A stretch of 64,000 nucleotides of DNA from Bacilli bacterium (GTDB taxonomy: Bacteria; Bacillota_I; Bacilli_A; RF39; UBA660). The notes below the pieces were generated by a model that saw nothing but the letters and a program-made list of their open reading frames with translations, made no database searches and was not told where the DNA came from. A program made the translations under genes and the position numbers. The stretch lies in assembly GCA_045541255.1 (NCBI GenBank), contig JAZQIU010000045.1:2497-66496 (forward strand), given 5' to 3'. Below, in pieces: positions 1,238 through 16,556 of this stretch (positions are counted from its first letter, which is position 1; every line of letters begins with the position of its first letter).

Positions 1238-1783
1238 ATGATAAAGACTTTTACTGGGCCAATGTTTAGTGGAAAAACAACAGCATTATTAACAACTTAC
1301 TTTAATATGTGGAATAAAGCTAATATAATGTGTTTTAAACCTAAAATTAATACTAGAGATGATGGTATAAAATCAAAAAATATAAAGGATAATGTAAGTG
1401 CTATAGAGATAAATGATTTATGTGAAATAAAAGAACATATAAAGAAAAATACTAAAACGATATTTATTGATGAAGCAAATTTTTTAGTAGGTGATGTAAA
1501 CGTTTTAGTTGAATTAAGTGTTGATAAAAATATAGATATTTATGTTTGTGGATTAAATATGACTGGTGAACAAAAACCTTTTGGCATAATGCCTCAAATA
1601 CTTGCTGTAAGTGATTATATTGATATAAAGAAGGGATATTGTACTGATTGTAATAGGGAAGCAGGATTTAGCTATTATATAGGTGGAAAAGATAAAGATA
1701 TTGTAGTTGGTGATAGTGGATATATTTCTTTATGCGAGGCGTGTTTACGTAAGAGAAGAAAGGGACAAAAAAATGAGAAGTAA
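1238..1783 (+). CDS. tdk: thymidine kinase
   Basis: P-loop 'GPMFSGKTT' and C-terminal Cys pairs 'CTDC...CEAC' typical of type II thymidine kinase. Confidence 0.9.
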   Translation: MIKTFTGPMFSGKTTALLTTYFNMWNKANIMCFKPKINTRDDGIKSKNIKDNVSAIEINDLCEIKEHIKKNTKTIFIDEANFLVGDVNVLVELSVDKNIDIYVCGLNMTGEQKPFGIMPQILAVSDYIDIKKGYCTDCNREAGFSYYIGGKDKDIVVGDSGYISLCEACLRKRRKGQKNEK

Positions 1784-3563
1784 TAAAAAGGGTTATACTT
1801 TAATTGAAATAATAGTTTGTATATTGCTTATTGTTTTAATAGGAACTATTTCTATAATTGTTGTAAAAAAGAATGAAAAAACTAATGATGATTTAAAAGT
1901 TGAGTATGTTGAAAAGATAAAATTGGATACAGCGGTTTATGTTGAGAAAAATAAAGAAAGTACATTATTTTCTGGTTTGAATTCCCCTGAAGATTATACT
2001 TATATTCAATTAAAAGATTTAATTAATTTAGGTATATTAGATGAAAATTTATATAATCCTATTTTTAATAATAGTAGTAAAAATCTTGGACATAGTTTAG
2101 TAAGGGTGTTTTTGGATAGTGAATCAAATATTGATATAGAATATCCTACAGTATATGAAGAAAAAATTAGAGAAGAGCTTCCTGAAGATACTCCACCAGA
2201 AGAAATAGAAGATAAGGTTAAGGATGAAATAGAAAATACTTTAAAAAATGTTTTTATCCATATTAGAGAAAATAATGAAAATGGTAATAAATTTATAATA
2301 CCCGATTCAAAAACAATGCTTAATGTTATTGATAGTTTAGTAAAAGATAAAACTTATAAAAGTAGTTATTATTTTTATAAAGCTTTAAAAGAAGGAGATT
2401 ATAACACTTATAATGATCCGGGGTATTATTTGGCTGATGCTGCTGGTAATATTATTAATACTACAGAAAATGATTGGTGTATAACAAAAGAAAAGATTTA
2501 TAGTGATAAAAAGAAAAAGAATTGGGATAATAAATGGAAATATACTTATGAAATATGTGAGAATAGTTCTATTTATAATGTTTATAAAAATGTAAATAGT
2601 GAAGATAATATAAGAATTGTTGAAATGGTTGATAATGATGCGCCTCTTTTATTATCAGAAAGTGATAATCGTGAATTTGTTAGTGGAGTTGATTATTTTA
2701 ATGCATTAGATAATTATTATTATGGATACTTAGATTTTTGGGCTATGTATTATTATAGTCAAGCATTTTATGTTTATGATAATTATGATGGTGCTAGTTA
2801 TGATGTGCCAGATCGTTTATCAAGTTTGAATTTTACTTATGATTTATTAACACAAGATTTATTATTAACTGATTCTAATAATAATAGTAGAATATATACA
2901 GTTGATGTTGCATTATCATATAATGAACAACCTTATGTTTATTATGATGGTCCTACTTATTTATATGAATATGATATTTATTATTCTAATGGAGAAATAT
3001 ATCCATTCTATGATTATATATATGCTTATGATTGGGATGATAATTTAGAATATACTTATTATTATTTATATGATGATTATGGAAATTATTATTATCCTTA
3101 TGATGATACATACATACCTACAGGCAATTATACTTTATCTGTAGAAGCTTGTGATACTTATTGGTATTGTGATTACCAAACTTATGAAATATATGTAGAT
3201 TATTATTACTATGAAGAACCTTGGTATGATGATTATTATGATGACTATTATGATTATGGATATGACGATTATTATTGTGGAGATGCTTGTATTATAGAGC
3301 AAATGCAGCAAAATTCTGAAGCTTGGTGGGGCGCTTCTCCAGAAGAGCAAGATAGGTTACATGAAGAGAATGAATGGTTAGCTGGCCAATTATCCGGAGA
3401 TACTTATTATACTGATGATGGATATTGGTATTATGATGATGGTTCTTATGTATATGGTGATGATTATTATAATGACTATTATGGTTACGATTATGGTTAT
3501 TATGACGATTATTATGGCTATGATGATTATTACTATGATTATGGATATGATTGTTGTTGGTAA
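1773..3563 (+). CDS. prepilin-type N-terminal cleavage/methylation-domain protein with extreme Tyr/Asp-rich C-terminal region
   Basis: Internal ATG at 1773 gives 'MRSNKKG/YTLIEIIVCILLIVLIG', a class of type IV pilin leader (G, then aromatic, E at +5, hydrophobic helix). The start overlaps the tdk stop by 11 nt. The C-terminus has runs such as 'YYDDYYDDYYDYGYDDYY'. Confidence 0.7.
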   Translation: MRSNKKGYTLIEIIVCILLIVLIGTISIIVVKKNEKTNDDLKVEYVEKIKLDTAVYVEKNKESTLFSGLNSPEDYTYIQLKDLINLGILDENLYNPIFNNSSKNLGHSLVRVFLDSESNIDIEYPTVYEEKIREELPEDTPPEEIEDKVKDEIENTLKNVFIHIRENNENGNKFIIPDSKTMLNVIDSLVKDKTYKSSYYFYKALKEGDYNTYNDPGYYLADAAGNIINTTENDWCITKEKIYSDKKKKNWDNKWKYTYEICENSSIYNVYKNVNSEDNIRIVEMVDNDAPLLLSESDNREFVSGVDYFNALDNYYYGYLDFWAMYYYSQAFYVYDNYDGASYDVPDRLSSLNFTYDLLTQDLLLTDSNNNSRIYTVDVALSYNEQPYVYYDGPTYLYEYDIYYSNGEIYPFYDYIYAYDWDDNLEYTYYYLYDDYGNYYYPYDDTYIPTGNYTLSVEACDTYWYCDYQTYEIYVDYYYYEEPWYDDYYDDYYDYGYDDYYCGDACIIEQMQQNSEAWWGASPEEQDRLHEENEWLAGQLSGDTYYTDDGYWYYDDGSYVYGDDYYNDYYGYDYGYYDDYYGYDDYYYDYGYDCCW

Positions 3564-3579
3564 GTGGGAGGAGTAAATT

Positions 3580-4029
3580 ATGAAGAAAAAAATATTATTG
3601 ATAATAATTAGTGTATTAATTTTAGTTGGTTTGGGAGTTTTAATTTTCTTATTGGTAGATAAAGATGATAAAAAAGTTACTACTGAAAATAAAACTGAAG
3701 AAAAGGAATATTATTTGGCTATGCATAAAAGAATGTATGATTATTATAAAATTATGTATAAGAATATAGATGTTCCTGAAGATAAAAAAGATTCTACTAT
3801 AAGAATAAATTTAGGTACTTTAAAAAGAGAAGGTTTTCCAATGGAAGAATTTGTTAGTTTTGATGGTAAAGATGAATGTGATTTGGCAATGAGTTATGCA
3901 GTTAGAAAAGTTGTAAATAATAAATATCAAATAGAAGTTTATTATAAATGTGGTACAACTGCAAATTATGATTATACAAAAGTAAGTACTACAAAGAAAA
4001 TTAATACAACAACTAAGAGTGGGAGTTAA
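3580..4029 (+). CDS. membrane-anchored hypothetical protein
   Basis: N-terminal TM 'ILLIIISVLILVGLGVLIFLLV', GGAGG RBS upstream. No recognisable family. Confidence 0.55.
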   Translation: MKKKILLIIISVLILVGLGVLIFLLVDKDDKKVTTENKTEEKEYYLAMHKRMYDYYKIMYKNIDVPEDKKDSTIRINLGTLKREGFPMEEFVSFDGKDECDLAMSYAVRKVVNNKYQIEVYYKCGTTANYDYTKVSTTKKINTTTKSGS

Positions 4030-4031
4030 TA

Positions 4032-4715
4032 ATGAGTAGAGGTAAATTAATTGTAATTGAAGGTACTGATTGTAGTGGTAAAGAAACACAAGCTAAACTA
4101 TTGTTAGAGAAATTAAGAAACAAAGGTATTAAAATAGAGGAAAGAGGTTTTCCAATGTATGATACTCCTACTGGATATATAGTTGGTGCTTGTTTGTTAG
4201 GTAAACCTCATATGGGAGAAAGTATTTTTGAAGAAGGAACAACTAATGTTCCGCCTAAGGTTGCTGCATTATATTATGCAGCAGATAGATTGTATAATAT
4301 AGAATCTATTAACAAAATGTTAGATGATGGTGTAAATGTTATTTTAGATAGATATGTTGAAAGCAATATGGGACATCAAGCAGGTAAATTAAAAGATAAA
4401 CATGATAAACTAAATATGATGAATTGGTTAGAAAAATTAGAATATGATTTATTAGAACTTCCTAAGCCTGATATAGTAATGTTTTTATATATGCCATATC
4501 AATATTCTGTTGAGTTAAGGAATAAACGTGCTGAAGCAGCTGATGGTGCTGAAAGAGATGTTGAACATTTAAAAAATGCTGAAGCTACATATTCTTTAAT
4601 GGCTGAAAAGTATAATTATAATATAATACATTGTGTTAAAGATGATAAAATAAGAACTATAGAAGAAATAAATGAAGATATATATTCTTTAGTAATTGAA
4701 AAGTTAAAGGATTAG
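4032..4715 (+). CDS. tmk: thymidylate kinase
   Basis: 'IVIEGTDCSGKETQ' P-loop and 'LDRY' motif. Confidence 0.9.
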   Translation: MSRGKLIVIEGTDCSGKETQAKLLLEKLRNKGIKIEERGFPMYDTPTGYIVGACLLGKPHMGESIFEEGTTNVPPKVAALYYAADRLYNIESINKMLDDGVNVILDRYVESNMGHQAGKLKDKHDKLNMMNWLEKLEYDLLELPKPDIVMFLYMPYQYSVELRNKRAEAADGAERDVEHLKNAEATYSLMAEKYNYNIIHCVKDDKIRTIEEINEDIYSLVIEKLKD

Positions 4716-16094: not shown

Positions 16095-16556
16095 ATGAAA
16101 AGATTAAATAAGAAAGGTTTTACATTAGTTGAATTATTAGCAGTAATCGTTGTATTAGCTTTATTAATGGTTGTTGCTGCAAGTAGTATTGGTACTGCTT
16201 TAGACAATTCTAAGAAAAAAGCTTTATTAACTGAAACTCAAAAATTAATTACTAATATTACTGGTGAAGCTCAATCTTTAAAATTAATGGGAAGCTTAAA
16301 TGCTACTAATAAATTAGGTAGTGCATATAATGGTAAAGATGGAGATTATGCGTATAGTGTTACAGTTAATACTCATGGATATATTACTGCATTAACAGTA
16401 TGTTATGGTACTGATTATAAAGCAGTAGCTGAAATTACAACATCTAGTGATGGGTATACAACTACAGTAAAAGCTCCAGCAACAGCAACTGAAATTGCTT
16501 CTGGAGAAACTGTTTGTACTAGTTCATTTGCTGGAAGCGTTACAATTAGTGACTAA
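16095..16556 (+). CDS. type IV pilin / ComGC-like pseudopilin (prepilin-type N-terminal methylation domain)
   Basis: ATG at 16095 gives 'MKRLNKKG/FTLVELLAVIVVLALLMVVA', a canonical G/FTLxE prepilin leader. Confidence 0.85.
   Translation: MKRLNKKGFTLVELLAVIVVLALLMVVAASSIGTALDNSKKKALLTETQKLITNITGEAQSLKLMGSLNATNKLGSAYNGKDGDYAYSVTVNTHGYITALTVCYGTDYKAVAEITTSSDGYTTTVKAPATATEIASGETVCTSSFAGSVTISD

What the first reader, a model, noticed from the sequence alone, without database searches (positions are those of the whole stretch)
1773..3563. Prepilin-leader protein with an extraordinary Tyr/Asp-rich domain, wedged between tdk and tmk
Seen: the N-terminus is 'MRSNKKG/YTLIEIIVCILLIVLIG', a type IV prepilin-like cleavage/methylation site. 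A ~300-aa ordinary region follows. From about nt 2709 onward the sequence is dominated by Tyr and Asp, for example 'YYYGYLDFWAMYYY', 'YYDDYYDDYYDYGYDDYY' and the ending 'YYDDYYGYDDYYYDYGYDCCW'. This is interrupted by one normal segment, 'CGDACIIEQMQQNSEAWWGASPEEQDRLHEENEWLAGQL'. The start codon overlaps the tdk stop, and the gene is followed by a small TM protein and then tmk. So it lies inside a nucleotide-salvage gene string, far from any pilus assembly gene. Inference: it could be a pseudopilin-anchored adhesive or cation/mineral-binding tip, or a low-complexity surface fibre. I know of no described pilin with such a domain.
Basis: partly seen in the sequence, partly recalled or inferred. 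Interest (0 to 1): 0.6.

Follow-up and report, generated by a model that had tools for sequence, protein, structure and literature searches.

The report
Tyrosine-rich modular type IV pilin
This is a real, conserved pilus subunit of an uncultured gut bacterium whose outer part is an unusually tyrosine- and aspartate-rich, very acidic stalk ending in a small module otherwise seen in phage tail tape-measure proteins, so it is probably a pilus adhesin of a new design.

Summary
Window 1773-3563 (+) encodes a 596-aa protein with a prepilin leader (MRSNKKG|YTLIE) and a C-terminal half rich in Tyr and Asp. It is the strongest Tyr outlier among the genome's long ORFs. It is not a misassembly: two metagenome contigs from separate studies span it without length change. 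An 86%-identical ortholog and about a dozen remoter relatives keep the same design.

The "Tyr/Asp domain" has four parts:
- Ig-like beta-sandwich domains predicted as folded, the last with 35% Tyr.
- A 24-aa disordered poly(Y/D) linker.
- A 59-aa helical-hairpin plus beta-hairpin module. It shows 0 non-synonymous against 15 synonymous changes versus the ortholog. It recurs in phage tape-measure proteins, in proteins with cell-wall hydrolase domains and in an unrelated modular pilin.
- A 34-aa disordered Y/D/G tail ending in CCW.

Residues 385-596 hold one basic residue.

The genome encodes a PilD-like peptidase, a PilB/GspE-type ATPase, a PilC/GspF-type platform and 15 scattered prepilin ORFs. 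The pilin/small-membrane-protein/tmk arrangement recurs in the genus with different cargos.

Best reading: a modular minor pilin, probably a tip adhesin. It is a new variant of a known kind. Its ligand is unknown.

The parts
1773..3563 (+). Whole gene: 596-aa modular type IV prepilin (P0001), stop codon included
   Evidence: ORF and translation. Ortholog at 86% identity in G010 in the same synteny. Metagenome relatives at 28-58% identity.
1773..1793 (+). Class III (prepilin) leader MRSNKKG; predicted cleavage after Gly7
   Evidence: G7, T9 and E12 are invariant in 13 family members. Pfam N_methyl scores 20.9 bits against a cut-off of 21.2. TIGR02532 scores 15.7 against 16.3. The six-frame search scores the same place 25.6 bits, over the cut-off.
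1773..2162 (+). Pilin module (residues 1-130): long N-terminal helix plus a small beta-sheet
   Evidence: AF2 gives helices 10-31 and 38-59 and strands 75-79, 109-114 and 120-123, with pLDDT mostly 78-91. 41% identity to the paralog at G000:C17 over residues 2-162.
2163..2423 (+). Helical/mixed connector (residues 131-217)
   Evidence: AF2 helices 127-135, 142-157, 179-191 and 198-206.
2424..2699 (+). Beta domain A (residues 218-309), ending in the conserved VDNDAP motif
   Evidence: AF2 strands with pLDDT 80-92. D287 and P291 are invariant. Fold hits are tandem Ig-like/cadherin-like arrays.
2700..2924 (+). Beta domain B (residues 310-384), 19% Tyr, with the invariant FDNYDG motif
   Evidence: D336, N337, D339 and G340 are invariant. 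AF2 strands. Composition.
2925..3209 (+). Beta domain C (residues 385-479): 35% Tyr, 14% Asp, no Lys or Arg, predicted folded
   Evidence: Composition. AF2 strands 388-476 with pLDDT 65-92. dN/dS 0.45 against the G010 ortholog.
3210..3281 (+). Poly(Tyr/Asp) linker 1 (residues 480-503), ending in the first Cys of CGDAC
   Evidence: 42% Tyr, 29% Asp. pLDDT below 50 for residues 480-502. Composition is kept in 7 relatives measured while sequence and length vary. dN/dS 0.14.
3282..3458 (+). Conserved 59-aa module (residues 504-562): helix-turn-helix hairpin plus beta-hairpin; core pattern M-x-x-N-S-x-x-W ... L-x-x-x-N ... G-x-W ... G-x-x-L-Y
   Evidence: Against G010 there are 0 non-synonymous and 15 synonymous differences. 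The segment is identical in P0004, which is 44% identical overall. It recurs in 46 non-family proteins. Modelled alone it gives pLDDT 82.8 and pTM 0.70.
3459..3560 (+). Poly(Tyr/Asp/Gly) tail (residues 563-596), ending in CCW
   Evidence: 47% Tyr, 29% Asp, 12% Gly. pLDDT below 50 for residues 567-596. The tail is 25-46 aa in 7 relatives measured. dN/dS 0.02 over 25 alignable codons.
3580..4029 (+). Cassette partner P0002: 149-aa protein with one TM helix and two invariant Cys
   Evidence: 34% identity (E 6e-25) to the small ORF that follows the paralogous pilin on C17. Homologs lie directly downstream of large family pilins in G007, G010, G012, G013 and G015. Alignment A3.
1238..1783 (+). tdk (thymidine kinase); its last 11 nt overlap the pilin start
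   Evidence: Pfam TK, 99.5 bits.
4032..4715 (+). tmk (dTMP kinase), the conserved downstream neighbour of the cassette
   Evidence: Pfam Thymidylate_kin, 72.9 bits. The same neighbour is found in G007, G010, G012, G013 and G015.

Best explanation
The gene encodes a modular type IV (minor) pilin.

Inferred steps:
- It is made as a prepilin and cut after Gly7 by the genome's PilD-like peptidase.
- It is loaded into a filament built by a minimal PilB/GspE-type ATPase and PilC/GspF-type platform.
- With about 465 residues of cargo on a roughly 130-residue pilin module, it most likely sits at the filament tip.

Predicted cargo, from the inside outwards:
- A helical connector.
- Three Ig-like beta-sandwich domains that become steadily richer in Tyr.
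- A 59-aa helical-hairpin/beta-hairpin module of unknown function, shared with phage tape-measure proteins and with proteins carrying cell-wall hydrolase domains.
- Two short disordered poly(Tyr/Asp) stretches that bracket this module.

From residue 385 to the end there is a single basic residue and a net charge of about -51.

Proposed mechanism (inference): the beta-sandwich stalk projects the terminal module as the specific binding element. The Y/D stretches are flexible, polyanionic, aromatic spacers that are conserved by composition. They hold the module out and may add weak multivalent stickiness or Ca2+ binding. The small membrane protein encoded downstream belongs to the same cassette and probably acts with the pilin in assembly or as a partner.
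For: Leader and fold:
- Gly at -1 and Glu at +5 are invariant in 13 of 13 family members.
- N_methyl scores sit at the cut-off, like those of the genome's other large pilins, which score 20.4-27.3 bits.
- AF2 predicts a pilin-like N-terminal helix plus sheet.

Machinery in the same genome:
- Peptidase_A24, 51.9 bits.
- An ATPase scoring 474 bits to GspE and 464 bits to PilB.
- A platform protein with two T2SSF domains.
- 15 prepilin ORFs, 8 of them 422-749 aa. One carries a VWA domain as Streptococcus sanguinis PilB does.

Cassette:
- The pilin/small-protein/tmk order is found in G000, G007, G010, G012, G013 and G015, with cargos up to an ORF of 1958 aa.
- A paralogous pilin/small-protein pair lies next to the ATPase gene.

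Folded against disordered parts: pLDDT is below 50 only at residues 1-5, 24-33, 310-319, 480-502 and 567-596. Fold hits are tandem Ig-like/cadherin-like adhesin and S-layer arrays, with 6 hits at E <= 1e-3.

Constraint:
- Whole gene dN/dS is 0.13.
- The module has 0 non-synonymous against 15 synonymous changes.
- The tail is 0.02 and linker 1 is 0.14.
- In the 7 relatives measured, the Y/D linker and tail keep 28-50% Tyr and 9-35% Asp at 38-86% overall identity.

Module elsewhere:
- 53 proteins match at E <= 1e-3 among 1.84 billion representatives. 46 of them match only around the module.
- 36 of these were scanned with Pfam. 8 carry PhageMin_Tail over the cut-off, 4 carry peptidoglycan-hydrolase domains, and 1 (P0060) is an unrelated modular pilin that ends with the same module after a Ser/Gly linker.

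Background: modular pilins as tip-displayed adhesins are established for S. sanguinis PilB (PMC8179133, passages read).
Against: - No experimental evidence of expression, cleavage or piliation. No RNA run was laid.
- PilM and PilN were not found. No PilT-like second ATPase appeared among the three T2SSE hits. The genome is 92.7% complete.
- N_methyl and TIGR02532 fall just under their curated cut-offs in hmmscan. The residue at +1 is Tyr where most prepilins have Phe.
- The cargo has no Pfam, NCBIfam or PHROG family.
- The Ig-like assignment rests on a model built from only 13 sequences and on weak Foldseek hits (TM 0.11-0.19).
- The module has no informative structural neighbour: best Z is 6.9, within the range the tool calls common for helical models. 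Its binding role is therefore a guess.
- 'Spacer' and 'adhesive element' cannot be told apart for the Y/D stretches by computation.
- Alignment inside the repeats is ambiguous, so the dN/dS values over 24-25 codons are rough.
Confidence: 0.6

Rival explanations
1. The Tyr/Asp stretches, together with the 35%-Tyr beta domain, are themselves the working part. They would form a polyanionic aromatic surface that binds Ca2+ or mineral, or that sticks to polysaccharide such as plant fibre or mucin by aromatic stacking. The terminal module would be secondary. This is.
For: - Composition is conserved across 7 relatives measured while sequence and length drift, and dN/dS is low.
- Net charge is about -51 with one basic residue over residues 385-596.
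- Invariant Asp-rich motifs (VDNDAP, FDNYDG) lie at domain junctions. They recall cadherin-type Ca2+ sites; that resemblance is from memory.
- Near-identical contigs occur in animal and bovine gut metagenomes.
- Type IV pili mediate adhesion of Ruminococcus albus to cellulose in ruminants (PMC4471445, passage read).
Against: - The remoter family members P0050 and P0053 keep the stalk and the module but have only 10-12% Tyr in these stretches.
- The pilins in the same genomic slot in G007, G013 and G015, and the unrelated pilin P0060, have Pro/Thr-, Ser/Glu/Thr- or Ser/Gly-rich stretches in the same positions. This is what ordinary linkers look like.
- The module is the most constrained part of the protein.
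- No cadherin, carbohydrate-binding or Ca-binding family was detected.
Confidence: 0.25
2. The Tyr residues are sites of post-translational modification, such as O-glycosylation or oxidative cross-linking. The Y/D stretches would then be the counterpart of the Ser/Thr-rich acidic tails on the pilins in the same slot of related genomes.
For: The slot-equivalent pilins end in acidic stretches rich in hydroxyl amino acids, for example Ser/Glu/Thr repeats in G013 and G015. Here Tyr takes the place of Ser/Thr next to acidic residues.
Against: No glycosyltransferase, peroxidase or similar gene lies in the operon: its genes are GDPD, tdk, the pilin, the small protein, tmk and an SDR. The organism is probably a gut anaerobe, which argues against oxidative dityrosine chemistry. 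There is no direct evidence of any kind.
Confidence: 0.12
3. The prepilin-like N-terminus serves only as a membrane anchor or export signal. The protein stays at the cell surface, or is released, and is never built into a filament.
For: HMM scores lie just under the curated cut-offs. The cargo is very large for a filament subunit. PilM, PilN and PilT were not found. The gene lies in a housekeeping operon.
Against: Gly at -1 and Glu at +5 are invariant. Glu5 is the hallmark of subunits that pack into filaments; this is established knowledge. The peptidase, ATPase and platform are present. A canonical 153-aa pilin is encoded in the same window. Large modular pilins are known to be displayed on filaments (PMC8179133).
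Confidence: 0.1
4. The Tyr/Asp runs are neutral products of AT-biased codon drift and replication slippage, or of misassembly, and have no function.
For: TAT and GAT are AT-rich codons in a 25.5% G+C genome. The runs differ in length between species by in-frame indels.
Against: - The protein is a lone outlier in its own genome.
- Two independent deep contigs agree on repeat length.
- dN/dS is 0.02-0.14 in the runs.
- Composition is kept down to 38% overall identity.
- The DNA repeats are imperfect: 66-90% matches and a longest exact word of 17 nt.
Confidence: 0.05

Closest known systems
Modular type IV pilins such as Streptococcus sanguinis PilB (vWA cargo) and PilC (lectin cargo). Raynaud et al. 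2021, PMC8179133, passages read. Shahin et al. 2023, PMC9934059, search listing and abstract only.
   Same: An N-terminal pilin module with a class III leader and a bulky functional cargo grafted at its C-terminus. Tip display is expected. The host is a monoderm. The same genome also encodes a vWA-bearing modular pilin.
   Different: The cargo has no recognised domain family. It consists of Tyr-rich Ig-like domains, two poly(Tyr/Asp) disordered stretches and a module shared with phage proteins. The gene sits in a housekeeping operon, not in a pil locus. PilM, PilN and PilT were not found.
ETEC CofB and Vibrio cholerae TcpB, tip minor pilins with beta-repeat and beta-sandwich domains behind a flexible linker, as summarised in PMC8179133.
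   Same: A pilin module followed by beta-rich domains that project from the pilus tip. The role is to present a binding function.
   Different: There is no detectable sequence relation. Those proteins belong to type IVb systems of diderms. Nothing in them is comparable to the Y/D stretches or the terminal helical-hairpin module.
C-terminal repeats of tape-measure proteins of uncultured Firmicutes phages. These are PF10145-bearing proteins of 1592-3229 aa found.
   Same: They carry the same module of about 57 aa: a helix-turn-helix hairpin plus a beta-hairpin, with invariant Met, Asn and Ser and conserved Trp, Leu, Asn and Gly.
   Different: The window's protein has one copy, no PhageMin_Tail domain and a pilin N-terminus. 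The phage proteins have 2-3 tandem copies ending 87-166 aa before their C-terminus. The module has no name in Pfam, NCBIfam or PHROGs.
Tyr/Asp/Lys-rich spore-coat proteins CotC and CotU of Bacillus subtilis (recalled from memory; the search gave only listings).
   Same: Extreme Tyr and Asp content in an extracytoplasmic structural protein of a Firmicute.
   Different: Those proteins are small, Lys-rich and part of the spore coat. Here the stretch has no Lys or Arg, is strongly acidic and belongs to a pilin. No homology was tested or is claimed.
Type IV pili of Ruminococcus albus that mediate adhesion to cellulose in ruminants (PMC4471445, passage read).
   Same: A Gram-positive gut bacterium that uses type IV pili to attach. 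The habitat, animal and bovine gut, matches the runs that hold this gene.
   Different: In R. albus the adhesive subunit named in that passage is the major pilin. No sequence comparison was made here. The ligand of the present protein is unknown.

Membership tests
Type IV pilin / class III signal peptide (Pfam PF07963 N_methyl, TIGR02532) | Short basic leader ending in Gly at -1, a hydrophobic residue at +1 and Glu at +5, followed by about 20 hydrophobic residues | tested here: met
   The sequence reads MRSNKKG|YTLIE IIVCILLIVLIG. G7, T9 and E12 are invariant in 13 of 13 family members. The +1 residue is Tyr or Phe within the family.
Type IV pilin / class III signal peptide (Pfam PF07963 N_methyl, TIGR02532) | HMM score at or above the curated cut-off | tested here: inconclusive
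   hmmscan gives PF07963 20.9 bits against 21.2, and TIGR02532 15.7 against 16.3. The six-frame genome search gives 25.6 bits at the same place, flagged as over the cut-off. Of the genome's seven other large prepilin-leader proteins, six scored 20.4-27.3 bits and one gave no match.
Type IV pilin / class III signal peptide (Pfam PF07963 N_methyl, TIGR02532) | Prepilin peptidase, assembly ATPase and platform protein encoded in the genome | tested here: met
   Peptidase_A24 at 51.9 bits, G000:C10. T2SSE at 417.9 bits, G000:C17. Two T2SSF domains in a 541-aa protein next to the peptidase gene. NCBIfam places them nearest GspE/PilB and GspF/PilC, below the equivalog cut-offs.
Type IV pilin / class III signal peptide (Pfam PF07963 N_methyl, TIGR02532) | Pilin fold: a long N-terminal helix packed on a beta-sheet | tested here: met
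   This is a prediction only. AF2 gives helices 10-31 and 38-59 and strands 75-79, 109-114 and 120-123, with pLDDT about 78-91.
Type IV pilin / class III signal peptide (Pfam PF07963 N_methyl, TIGR02532) | Actual cleavage, N-methylation and incorporation into a filament | not testable with these tools
   This needs proteomics or microscopy of an uncultured organism or of a heterologous host.
Modular pilins (sensu Raynaud et al. 2021) | An N-terminal pilin module fused to one or more extra modules that are not part of pilus biogenesis | tested here: met
   Residues 1-130 form the pilin module. Residues 131-596 form separate predicted domains. One of them is a module that also occurs in non-pilin proteins.
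Competence (Com) pilins ComGC-ComGG | NCBIfam equivalog score at or above the cut-off | tested here: not met
   ComGE 16.8 against 49, ComGD 16.5 against 70, ComGF 12.9 against 80, ComGC 12.3 against 75. All matches cover only the N-terminal motif.
Cadherin-like / bacterial Ig-like adhesin domains | Match to a curated domain model, or a clear structural match to a beta-sandwich with Ca2+-binding linkers | tested here: inconclusive
   No Pfam match at E <= 1. Foldseek gives 6 hits at E <= 1e-3, all tandem Ig-like or cadherin-like arrays, but with TM of only 0.11-0.19. The likeness of VDNDAP and FDNYDG to Ca2+ motifs is recalled, not tested.
Phage tape-measure protein (Pfam PF10145 PhageMin_Tail) | Presence of the PhageMin_Tail domain and a long helical ruler | tested here: not met
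   P0001 has no PF10145 match. Only the 59-aa C-terminal module is shared.
Cell-wall / choline-binding repeats (Pfam CW_binding_1) and YD/Rhs repeats | Match to the repeat models | tested here: not met
   P0001 has no match at E <= 1. The resemblance of the GYW...DGS.Y hairpin is visual only.

The most novel reading that the evidence does not exclude
The pilus tip carries a domain exchanged with phage tape-measure proteins. That domain would be a previously unnamed module that targets the cell envelope. It sits at the distal end of tape-measure proteins, beside cell-wall hydrolase domains, on small phage-type membrane proteins and on at least three different modular pilins. Here it is held between two poly(Tyr/Asp) disordered stretches, a kind of low-complexity region not found described for pilins in the searches made here. 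If the module binds a component of Gram-positive envelopes, this reduced-genome gut bacterium would use its pili to grip other bacteria rather than the host or food particles. Phages and pili would then be sharing one recognition device.
Probability: 0.15. Interest if true: 0.75.

Novelty: new variant of a known kind. Interest (0 to 1): 0.5.

Why it matters
Modular pilins are thought to explain how simple type IV filaments gain many functions, but most cargo modules are unnamed. This case adds three things.

1. A lineage of uncultured, small-genome gut Bacilli keeps one genomic slot next to tmk for a pilin whose cargo is swapped between species.
2. It defines a compact, highly constrained module of about 57 aa, shared between pilins, phage tape-measure proteins and proteins with cell-wall hydrolase domains. 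The module has no family name or solved structure and can now be tested directly.
3. It shows a conserved poly(Tyr/Asp) disordered region free of Lys and Arg, and a beta-sandwich with 35% Tyr. This composition is unusual and may interest people who study adhesion, low-complexity sequences or protein materials.

None of this is shown experimentally.

Tried and rejected
- Complex prediction of P0001 residues 1-320 with P0002 (collected). It gave no verdict: score 0.20 against a mark of 0.32, and the controls were not run. It says nothing for or against binding.
- ESM Atlas search with residues 500-566 gave no usable hit.
- Sequence search of solved structures. With P0001 the only hit had E 0.93. 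With the module profile A4 the four hits had E 0.21-0.93. None is meaningful.
- Fold search with the module model. Foldseek found nothing at E <= 1e-3. VIA-align gave a best Z of 6.9 to generic helical hairpins. No fold assignment follows, and the fold is not thereby shown to be new.
- Isolate-phage collection. tblastn with the window's module and with P0027 found no match in 50,697 records.
- IMG/VR searches:
  - P0014 returned 3 loci. The two whose matched ORF I translated were unrelated coiled-coil peptides sharing only an EKQRLEEE word, so I discarded all three.
  - A degenerate 30-nt pattern found nothing.
  - The genomic context of the module in phages therefore remains unseen.
- The second homologous-protein search, with alignment A2, added no new members.
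- The genome-contig scan used only the N-terminal pattern. It returned 17 loci, all matching only N-terminal residues of the query. It was useful only for the kin's record titles: uncultured Bacilli, Tenericutes and Mollicutes MAGs.
- The promoter scan was uninformative: 53 sites found against 58.9 expected.
- The search of earlier findings, four look-ups: nothing bears on this gene.
- Low-depth runs X3 and X4 have contig breaks near 3480-3560. I do not read these as evidence of anything.


Full report
**1. The observation**

Window 1773..3563 (+) is an open frame of 596 codons. Its ATG overlaps the last 11 nt of a thymidine kinase gene (1238..1783; Pfam TK 99.5 bits). A 149-aa protein with one TM helix follows (3580..4029), then dTMP kinase (4032..4715). 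The N-terminus is MRSNKKG/YTLIEIIVCILLIVLIG.

The quoted Tyr/Asp strings and the 'normal' segment are all present.

The composition is not just AT bias. In the 1.37-Mb, 25.5% G+C genome the 1016 ORFs of at least 150 aa average 5.3% Tyr and 6.2% Asp. This protein is first for Tyr at 17.1%. Its richest 60-aa window is 63% Y+D, against 35% for the runner-up.

**2. Not an artefact**

Four runs from four studies hold at least 59% of the sampled words of 2400-3800. They are recorded as animal or bovine gut metagenomes.

When laid, X1 (depth 112) and X2 (depth 50) each give one contig over the whole stretch. They show 10-12 substitutions and no length difference in the repeats. The paired 1-bp indels at 3389-3395 turn 'tta tcc' into 'ctt agt', which is again Leu-Ser. 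I read this from the sequence. X3 and X4 are shallow and fragmented.

At DNA level the repeats are imperfect. TRF arrays match at 66-90% and the longest exact repeated word is 17 nt.

**3. Relatives**

A search of 41 related genomes found the N-terminal roughly 100-160 residues in 15 of 15 other genomes of the genus. Only one of them, G010, has a full-length ortholog. It is 86% identical and sits in the same gene order: GDPD, tdk, pilin, small protein, tmk, SDR.

The 5.8-billion-protein index gave seven further relatives at 28-58% identity. A profile search added none. The exhaustive search with the C-terminal 290 residues added P0010, P0011, P0015, P0050 and P0053.

In the 13-member alignment G7, T9 and E12 are invariant. 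So are D287 and P291 (motif VDNDAP) and D336, N337, D339 and G340 (motif FDNYDG).

**4. Anatomy**

AlphaFold2 on that alignment gave mean pLDDT 74.1 and pTM 0.48. It predicts:
- A pilin-like N-terminal helix and sheet, residues 1-130.
- A helical connector.
- Beta-rich domains from residue 218 to 476.

pLDDT is below 50 only at residues 1-5, 24-33, 310-319, 480-502 and 567-596.

Foldseek against the PDB gave six hits at E <= 1e-3. All are tandem Ig-like or cadherin-like arrays: S-layer SbsC and Sap, and the adhesin SiiE. Cadherins and RTX adhesins follow just above that threshold. TM scores are low, 0.11-0.19. I therefore call the stalk Ig-like with moderate confidence only.

Composition by segment:

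| Residues | Segment | Tyr | Asp | Lys+Arg |
|---|---|---|---|---|
| 310-384 | beta domain B | 19% | 13% | 3% |
| 385-479 | beta domain C | 35% | 14% | none |
| 480-503 | linker 1 | 42% | 29% | none |
| 504-562 | module | 12% | 12% | one Arg |
| 563-596 | tail | 47% | 29% | none |

From residue 385 to the end the net charge is about -51. The 'extraordinary domain' is therefore two things: a Tyr-laden but folded stalk, and two short disordered Y/D stretches that bracket a structured module.

**5. The 'normal segment' is a mobile module**

Of the 53 proteins matching the C-terminal 290 residues at E <= 1e-3 among 1.84 billion representatives, 7 are relatives of the whole region. The other 46 match only around residues 490-565, often in 2-3 stretches.

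In proteins of 1300 aa or more it occurs as 1-3 copies, mostly 2-3 in tandem, ending 87-166 aa before the C-terminus.

I scanned 36 of these proteins with Pfam:
- 8 carry PhageMin_Tail (tape-measure) over the cut-off.
- 4 carry peptidoglycan-hydrolase domains: Glucosaminidase, Amidase_5/NlpC_P60, M23 and SLT.
- 1 (P0060) is an unrelated 511-aa modular pilin that ends in a Ser/Gly linker, a CxxxC motif and this module.
- The remaining 23 gave no family over its curated cut-off; 19 of these had no hit at all at the thresholds used.

A group of small proteins has an N-terminal TM helix followed by 1-3 modules. The pilin in the same slot of G007 has at least three copies between Pro/Thr-rich linkers.

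The module has no Pfam, NCBIfam or PHROG name. It has no relative among solved structures by sequence.

Modelled alone with 34 rows it gives pLDDT 82.8 and pTM 0.70. The model is two helices in a hairpin followed by a beta-hairpin. Fold searches returned only generic helical hairpins: no Foldseek hit at E <= 1e-3, and a best VIA Z of 6.9.

**6. Constraint**

Against the G010 ortholog (dS about 0.6):

| Segment | dN/dS | Note |
|---|---|---|
| Whole gene | 0.13 | |
| Module | 0 | 0 non-synonymous, 15 synonymous differences |
| Tail | 0.02 | 25 alignable codons |
| Linker 1 | 0.14 | |
| 35%-Tyr domain | 0.45 | |

The module is identical in P0004 although that protein is only 44% identical overall.

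In the 7 relatives measured at 38-86% identity, linker 1 is 31-37 aa with 37-48% Tyr. The tail is 25-46 aa with 28-50% Tyr. The repeat unit changes between them: DDYY, DPYY, DSYY, GYDYY, EDDYY. The remoter P0050 and P0053 have only 10-12% Tyr there.

So composition is what is kept, not sequence. Values over 24-25 codons in repeats are rough.

**7. Pilus context**

The genome (92.7% complete) encodes:
- A Peptidase_A24 prepilin peptidase.
- Next to it, a 541-aa platform protein with two T2SSF domains.
- A 487-aa ATPase nearest GspE/PilB: 474 and 464 bits, below the equivalog cut-offs.
- A Tad-like locus.

PilM and PilN were not found. No second PilT-like ATPase appeared.

There are 15 N_methyl-type ORFs, 8 of them 422-749 aa. 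Most lie alone or in pairs among housekeeping genes. One carries a VWA domain at 40.9 bits. A canonical 153-aa pilin lies in this same window.

The position between tdk and tmk is therefore not an oddity of this gene.

**8. A conserved cassette**

The downstream small protein P0002 is 34% identical (E 6e-25) to the small ORF that follows the paralogous 617-aa pilin on C17. That pair lies beside the ATPase gene.

P0002 homologs were found in 8 of 15 other genomes of the genus and in none of 25 outside it. Those I inspected, in G007, G010, G012, G013 and G015-C7, lie immediately after a large ORF and before tmk. For G015-C7 I did not see the N-terminus of that ORF. By coordinates, the G015-C6 homolog lies immediately after a large family-pilin ORF; its own downstream neighbour was not examined. 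The C-terminal stretches of these pilins are Ser/Glu/Thr- or Pro/Thr-rich instead of Tyr/Asp-rich.

G009 has a 634-aa pilin in the slot without the small gene.

The picture is a fixed slot with a conserved pilin head, a conserved small partner and a fast-changing cargo.

**9. Mechanism proposed**

Shown by sequence or search:
- The prepilin signature.
- The machinery genes.
- The family, the cassette and the constraint.
- The sharing of the module with phage tape-measure proteins.

Predicted: the fold and the disorder pattern.

Inferred:
- Cleavage after Gly7.
- Display at the filament tip, by analogy with bulky modular pilins (PMC8179133, passages read).
- An adhesive role, with the terminal module as the specific binder and the Y/D stretches as flexible, polyanionic, aromatic spacers.

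Every context of the module is extracytoplasmic and close to a cell envelope. These contexts are the distal end of tape-measure proteins, proteins with wall-hydrolase domains, small membrane proteins predicted to face outwards, and pilin cargos. I therefore favour an envelope or glycan ligand, but nothing tests this.

Rivals are given with their odds in the fields above. They are: the Y/D stretches as the adhesive or Ca2+-binding element, Tyr modification, a mere membrane anchor, and neutral slippage.

**10. Comparison and novelty**

The protein is a member of the modular pilins. The leader, the fold and the machinery tests are met. The HMM cut-off test is borderline, as it is for this genome's other pilins.

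It is not a Com pilin; the equivalog scores are far below their cut-offs. It is not a tape-measure protein.

Two literature searches found no report of a pilin with a Tyr-rich domain:
- 'modular pilin / type IV pilin / module'.
- 'tyrosine-rich' with 'pilin', which returned 7 papers. I opened one of them. It describes a short Tyr-rich motif inside the vWA domain of Acinetobacter ComC.

These searches cover only the held open-access library.

I rate this a new variant of a known kind. The unnamed phage/pilin module and the conserved poly(Tyr/Asp) stretches are the new elements.

**11. Limits**

- The organism is uncultured. Its kin's records are titled uncultured Bacilli, Tenericutes or Mollicutes MAGs.
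- No RNA or protein evidence was examined.
- The alignments behind the models are shallow (13 and 34 rows).
- The neighbourhoods of the metagenomic relatives could not be seen.
- The supplementary datasets of PMC8179133, which list modular-pilin architectures, were not opened. A similar architecture could be listed there.

Noticed in passing
window 16095-16556 (+): A canonical 153-aa type IV pilin (leader MKRLNKKG|FTLVE; TIGR02532 29.4 bits) lies about 12.5 kb downstream in the same window, among unrelated genes. It is a candidate major subunit of the filament.
   Followed up: partly
G000:C17:32698-36475 (loci L064, L002): A paralogous cassette: a 617-aa pilin with Ala at -1 where Gly is usual, plus a 128-aa small membrane protein. 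It lies convergent with the only PilB/GspE-type ATPase gene. The pilin's C-terminal part is also Tyr-rich (9.1% Tyr overall).
   Followed up: partly
G000:C49:5840-7354 (locus L016): A 504-aa modular pilin with a VWA domain (Pfam 40.9 bits) and a DxSGS motif, the same architecture as Streptococcus sanguinis PilB. A similar 492-aa pilin on C10 did not reach the VWA threshold.
   Followed up: partly
G000, 15 places listed: Most pilin genes lie alone or in pairs among ribosomal, tRNA-synthetase and nucleotide-metabolism genes; no pil operon was seen. The platform and peptidase genes (C10) lie apart from the ATPase gene (C17).
   Followed up: partly
L025 (G007:C3), L056 (G013:C6), L057 (G015:C7), L058 (G012:C14): The pilin slot upstream of tmk holds very different cargos in sister species: ORFs from 634 to 1958 aa, with Pro/Thr-rich or (ETSSS)n-type low-complexity stretches and Cys-rich repeats. 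The locus looks like a hot spot of cargo turnover.
   Followed up: partly
proteins P0013, P0014, P0019, P0028, P0031, P0033, P0034, P0043, P0044: A family of 250-390-aa proteins has a charged N-terminus, one TM helix, a conserved 'PTGYDGYP' motif, a coiled-coil stretch and 1-3 copies of the module separated by Ser/Thr-rich linkers. Their origin (phage or cell) and role are unknown.
   Followed up: no
G000:C7:6309-10976: A Tad-like locus: a small Flp/TadE-like ORF, a ParA/CpaE-like gene, a CpaF/TadA-type ATPase (T2SSE 203.8 bits) and two T2SSF-domain proteins. This would be a second, separate filament system in a 1.37-Mb genome.
   Followed up: no
window 3386-3409: All four laid metagenome runs encode Leu-Ser of the module with 'ctt agt' where the window has 'tta tcc'. 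A Ser codon-family switch with no amino-acid change fits strong purifying selection.
   Followed up: yes
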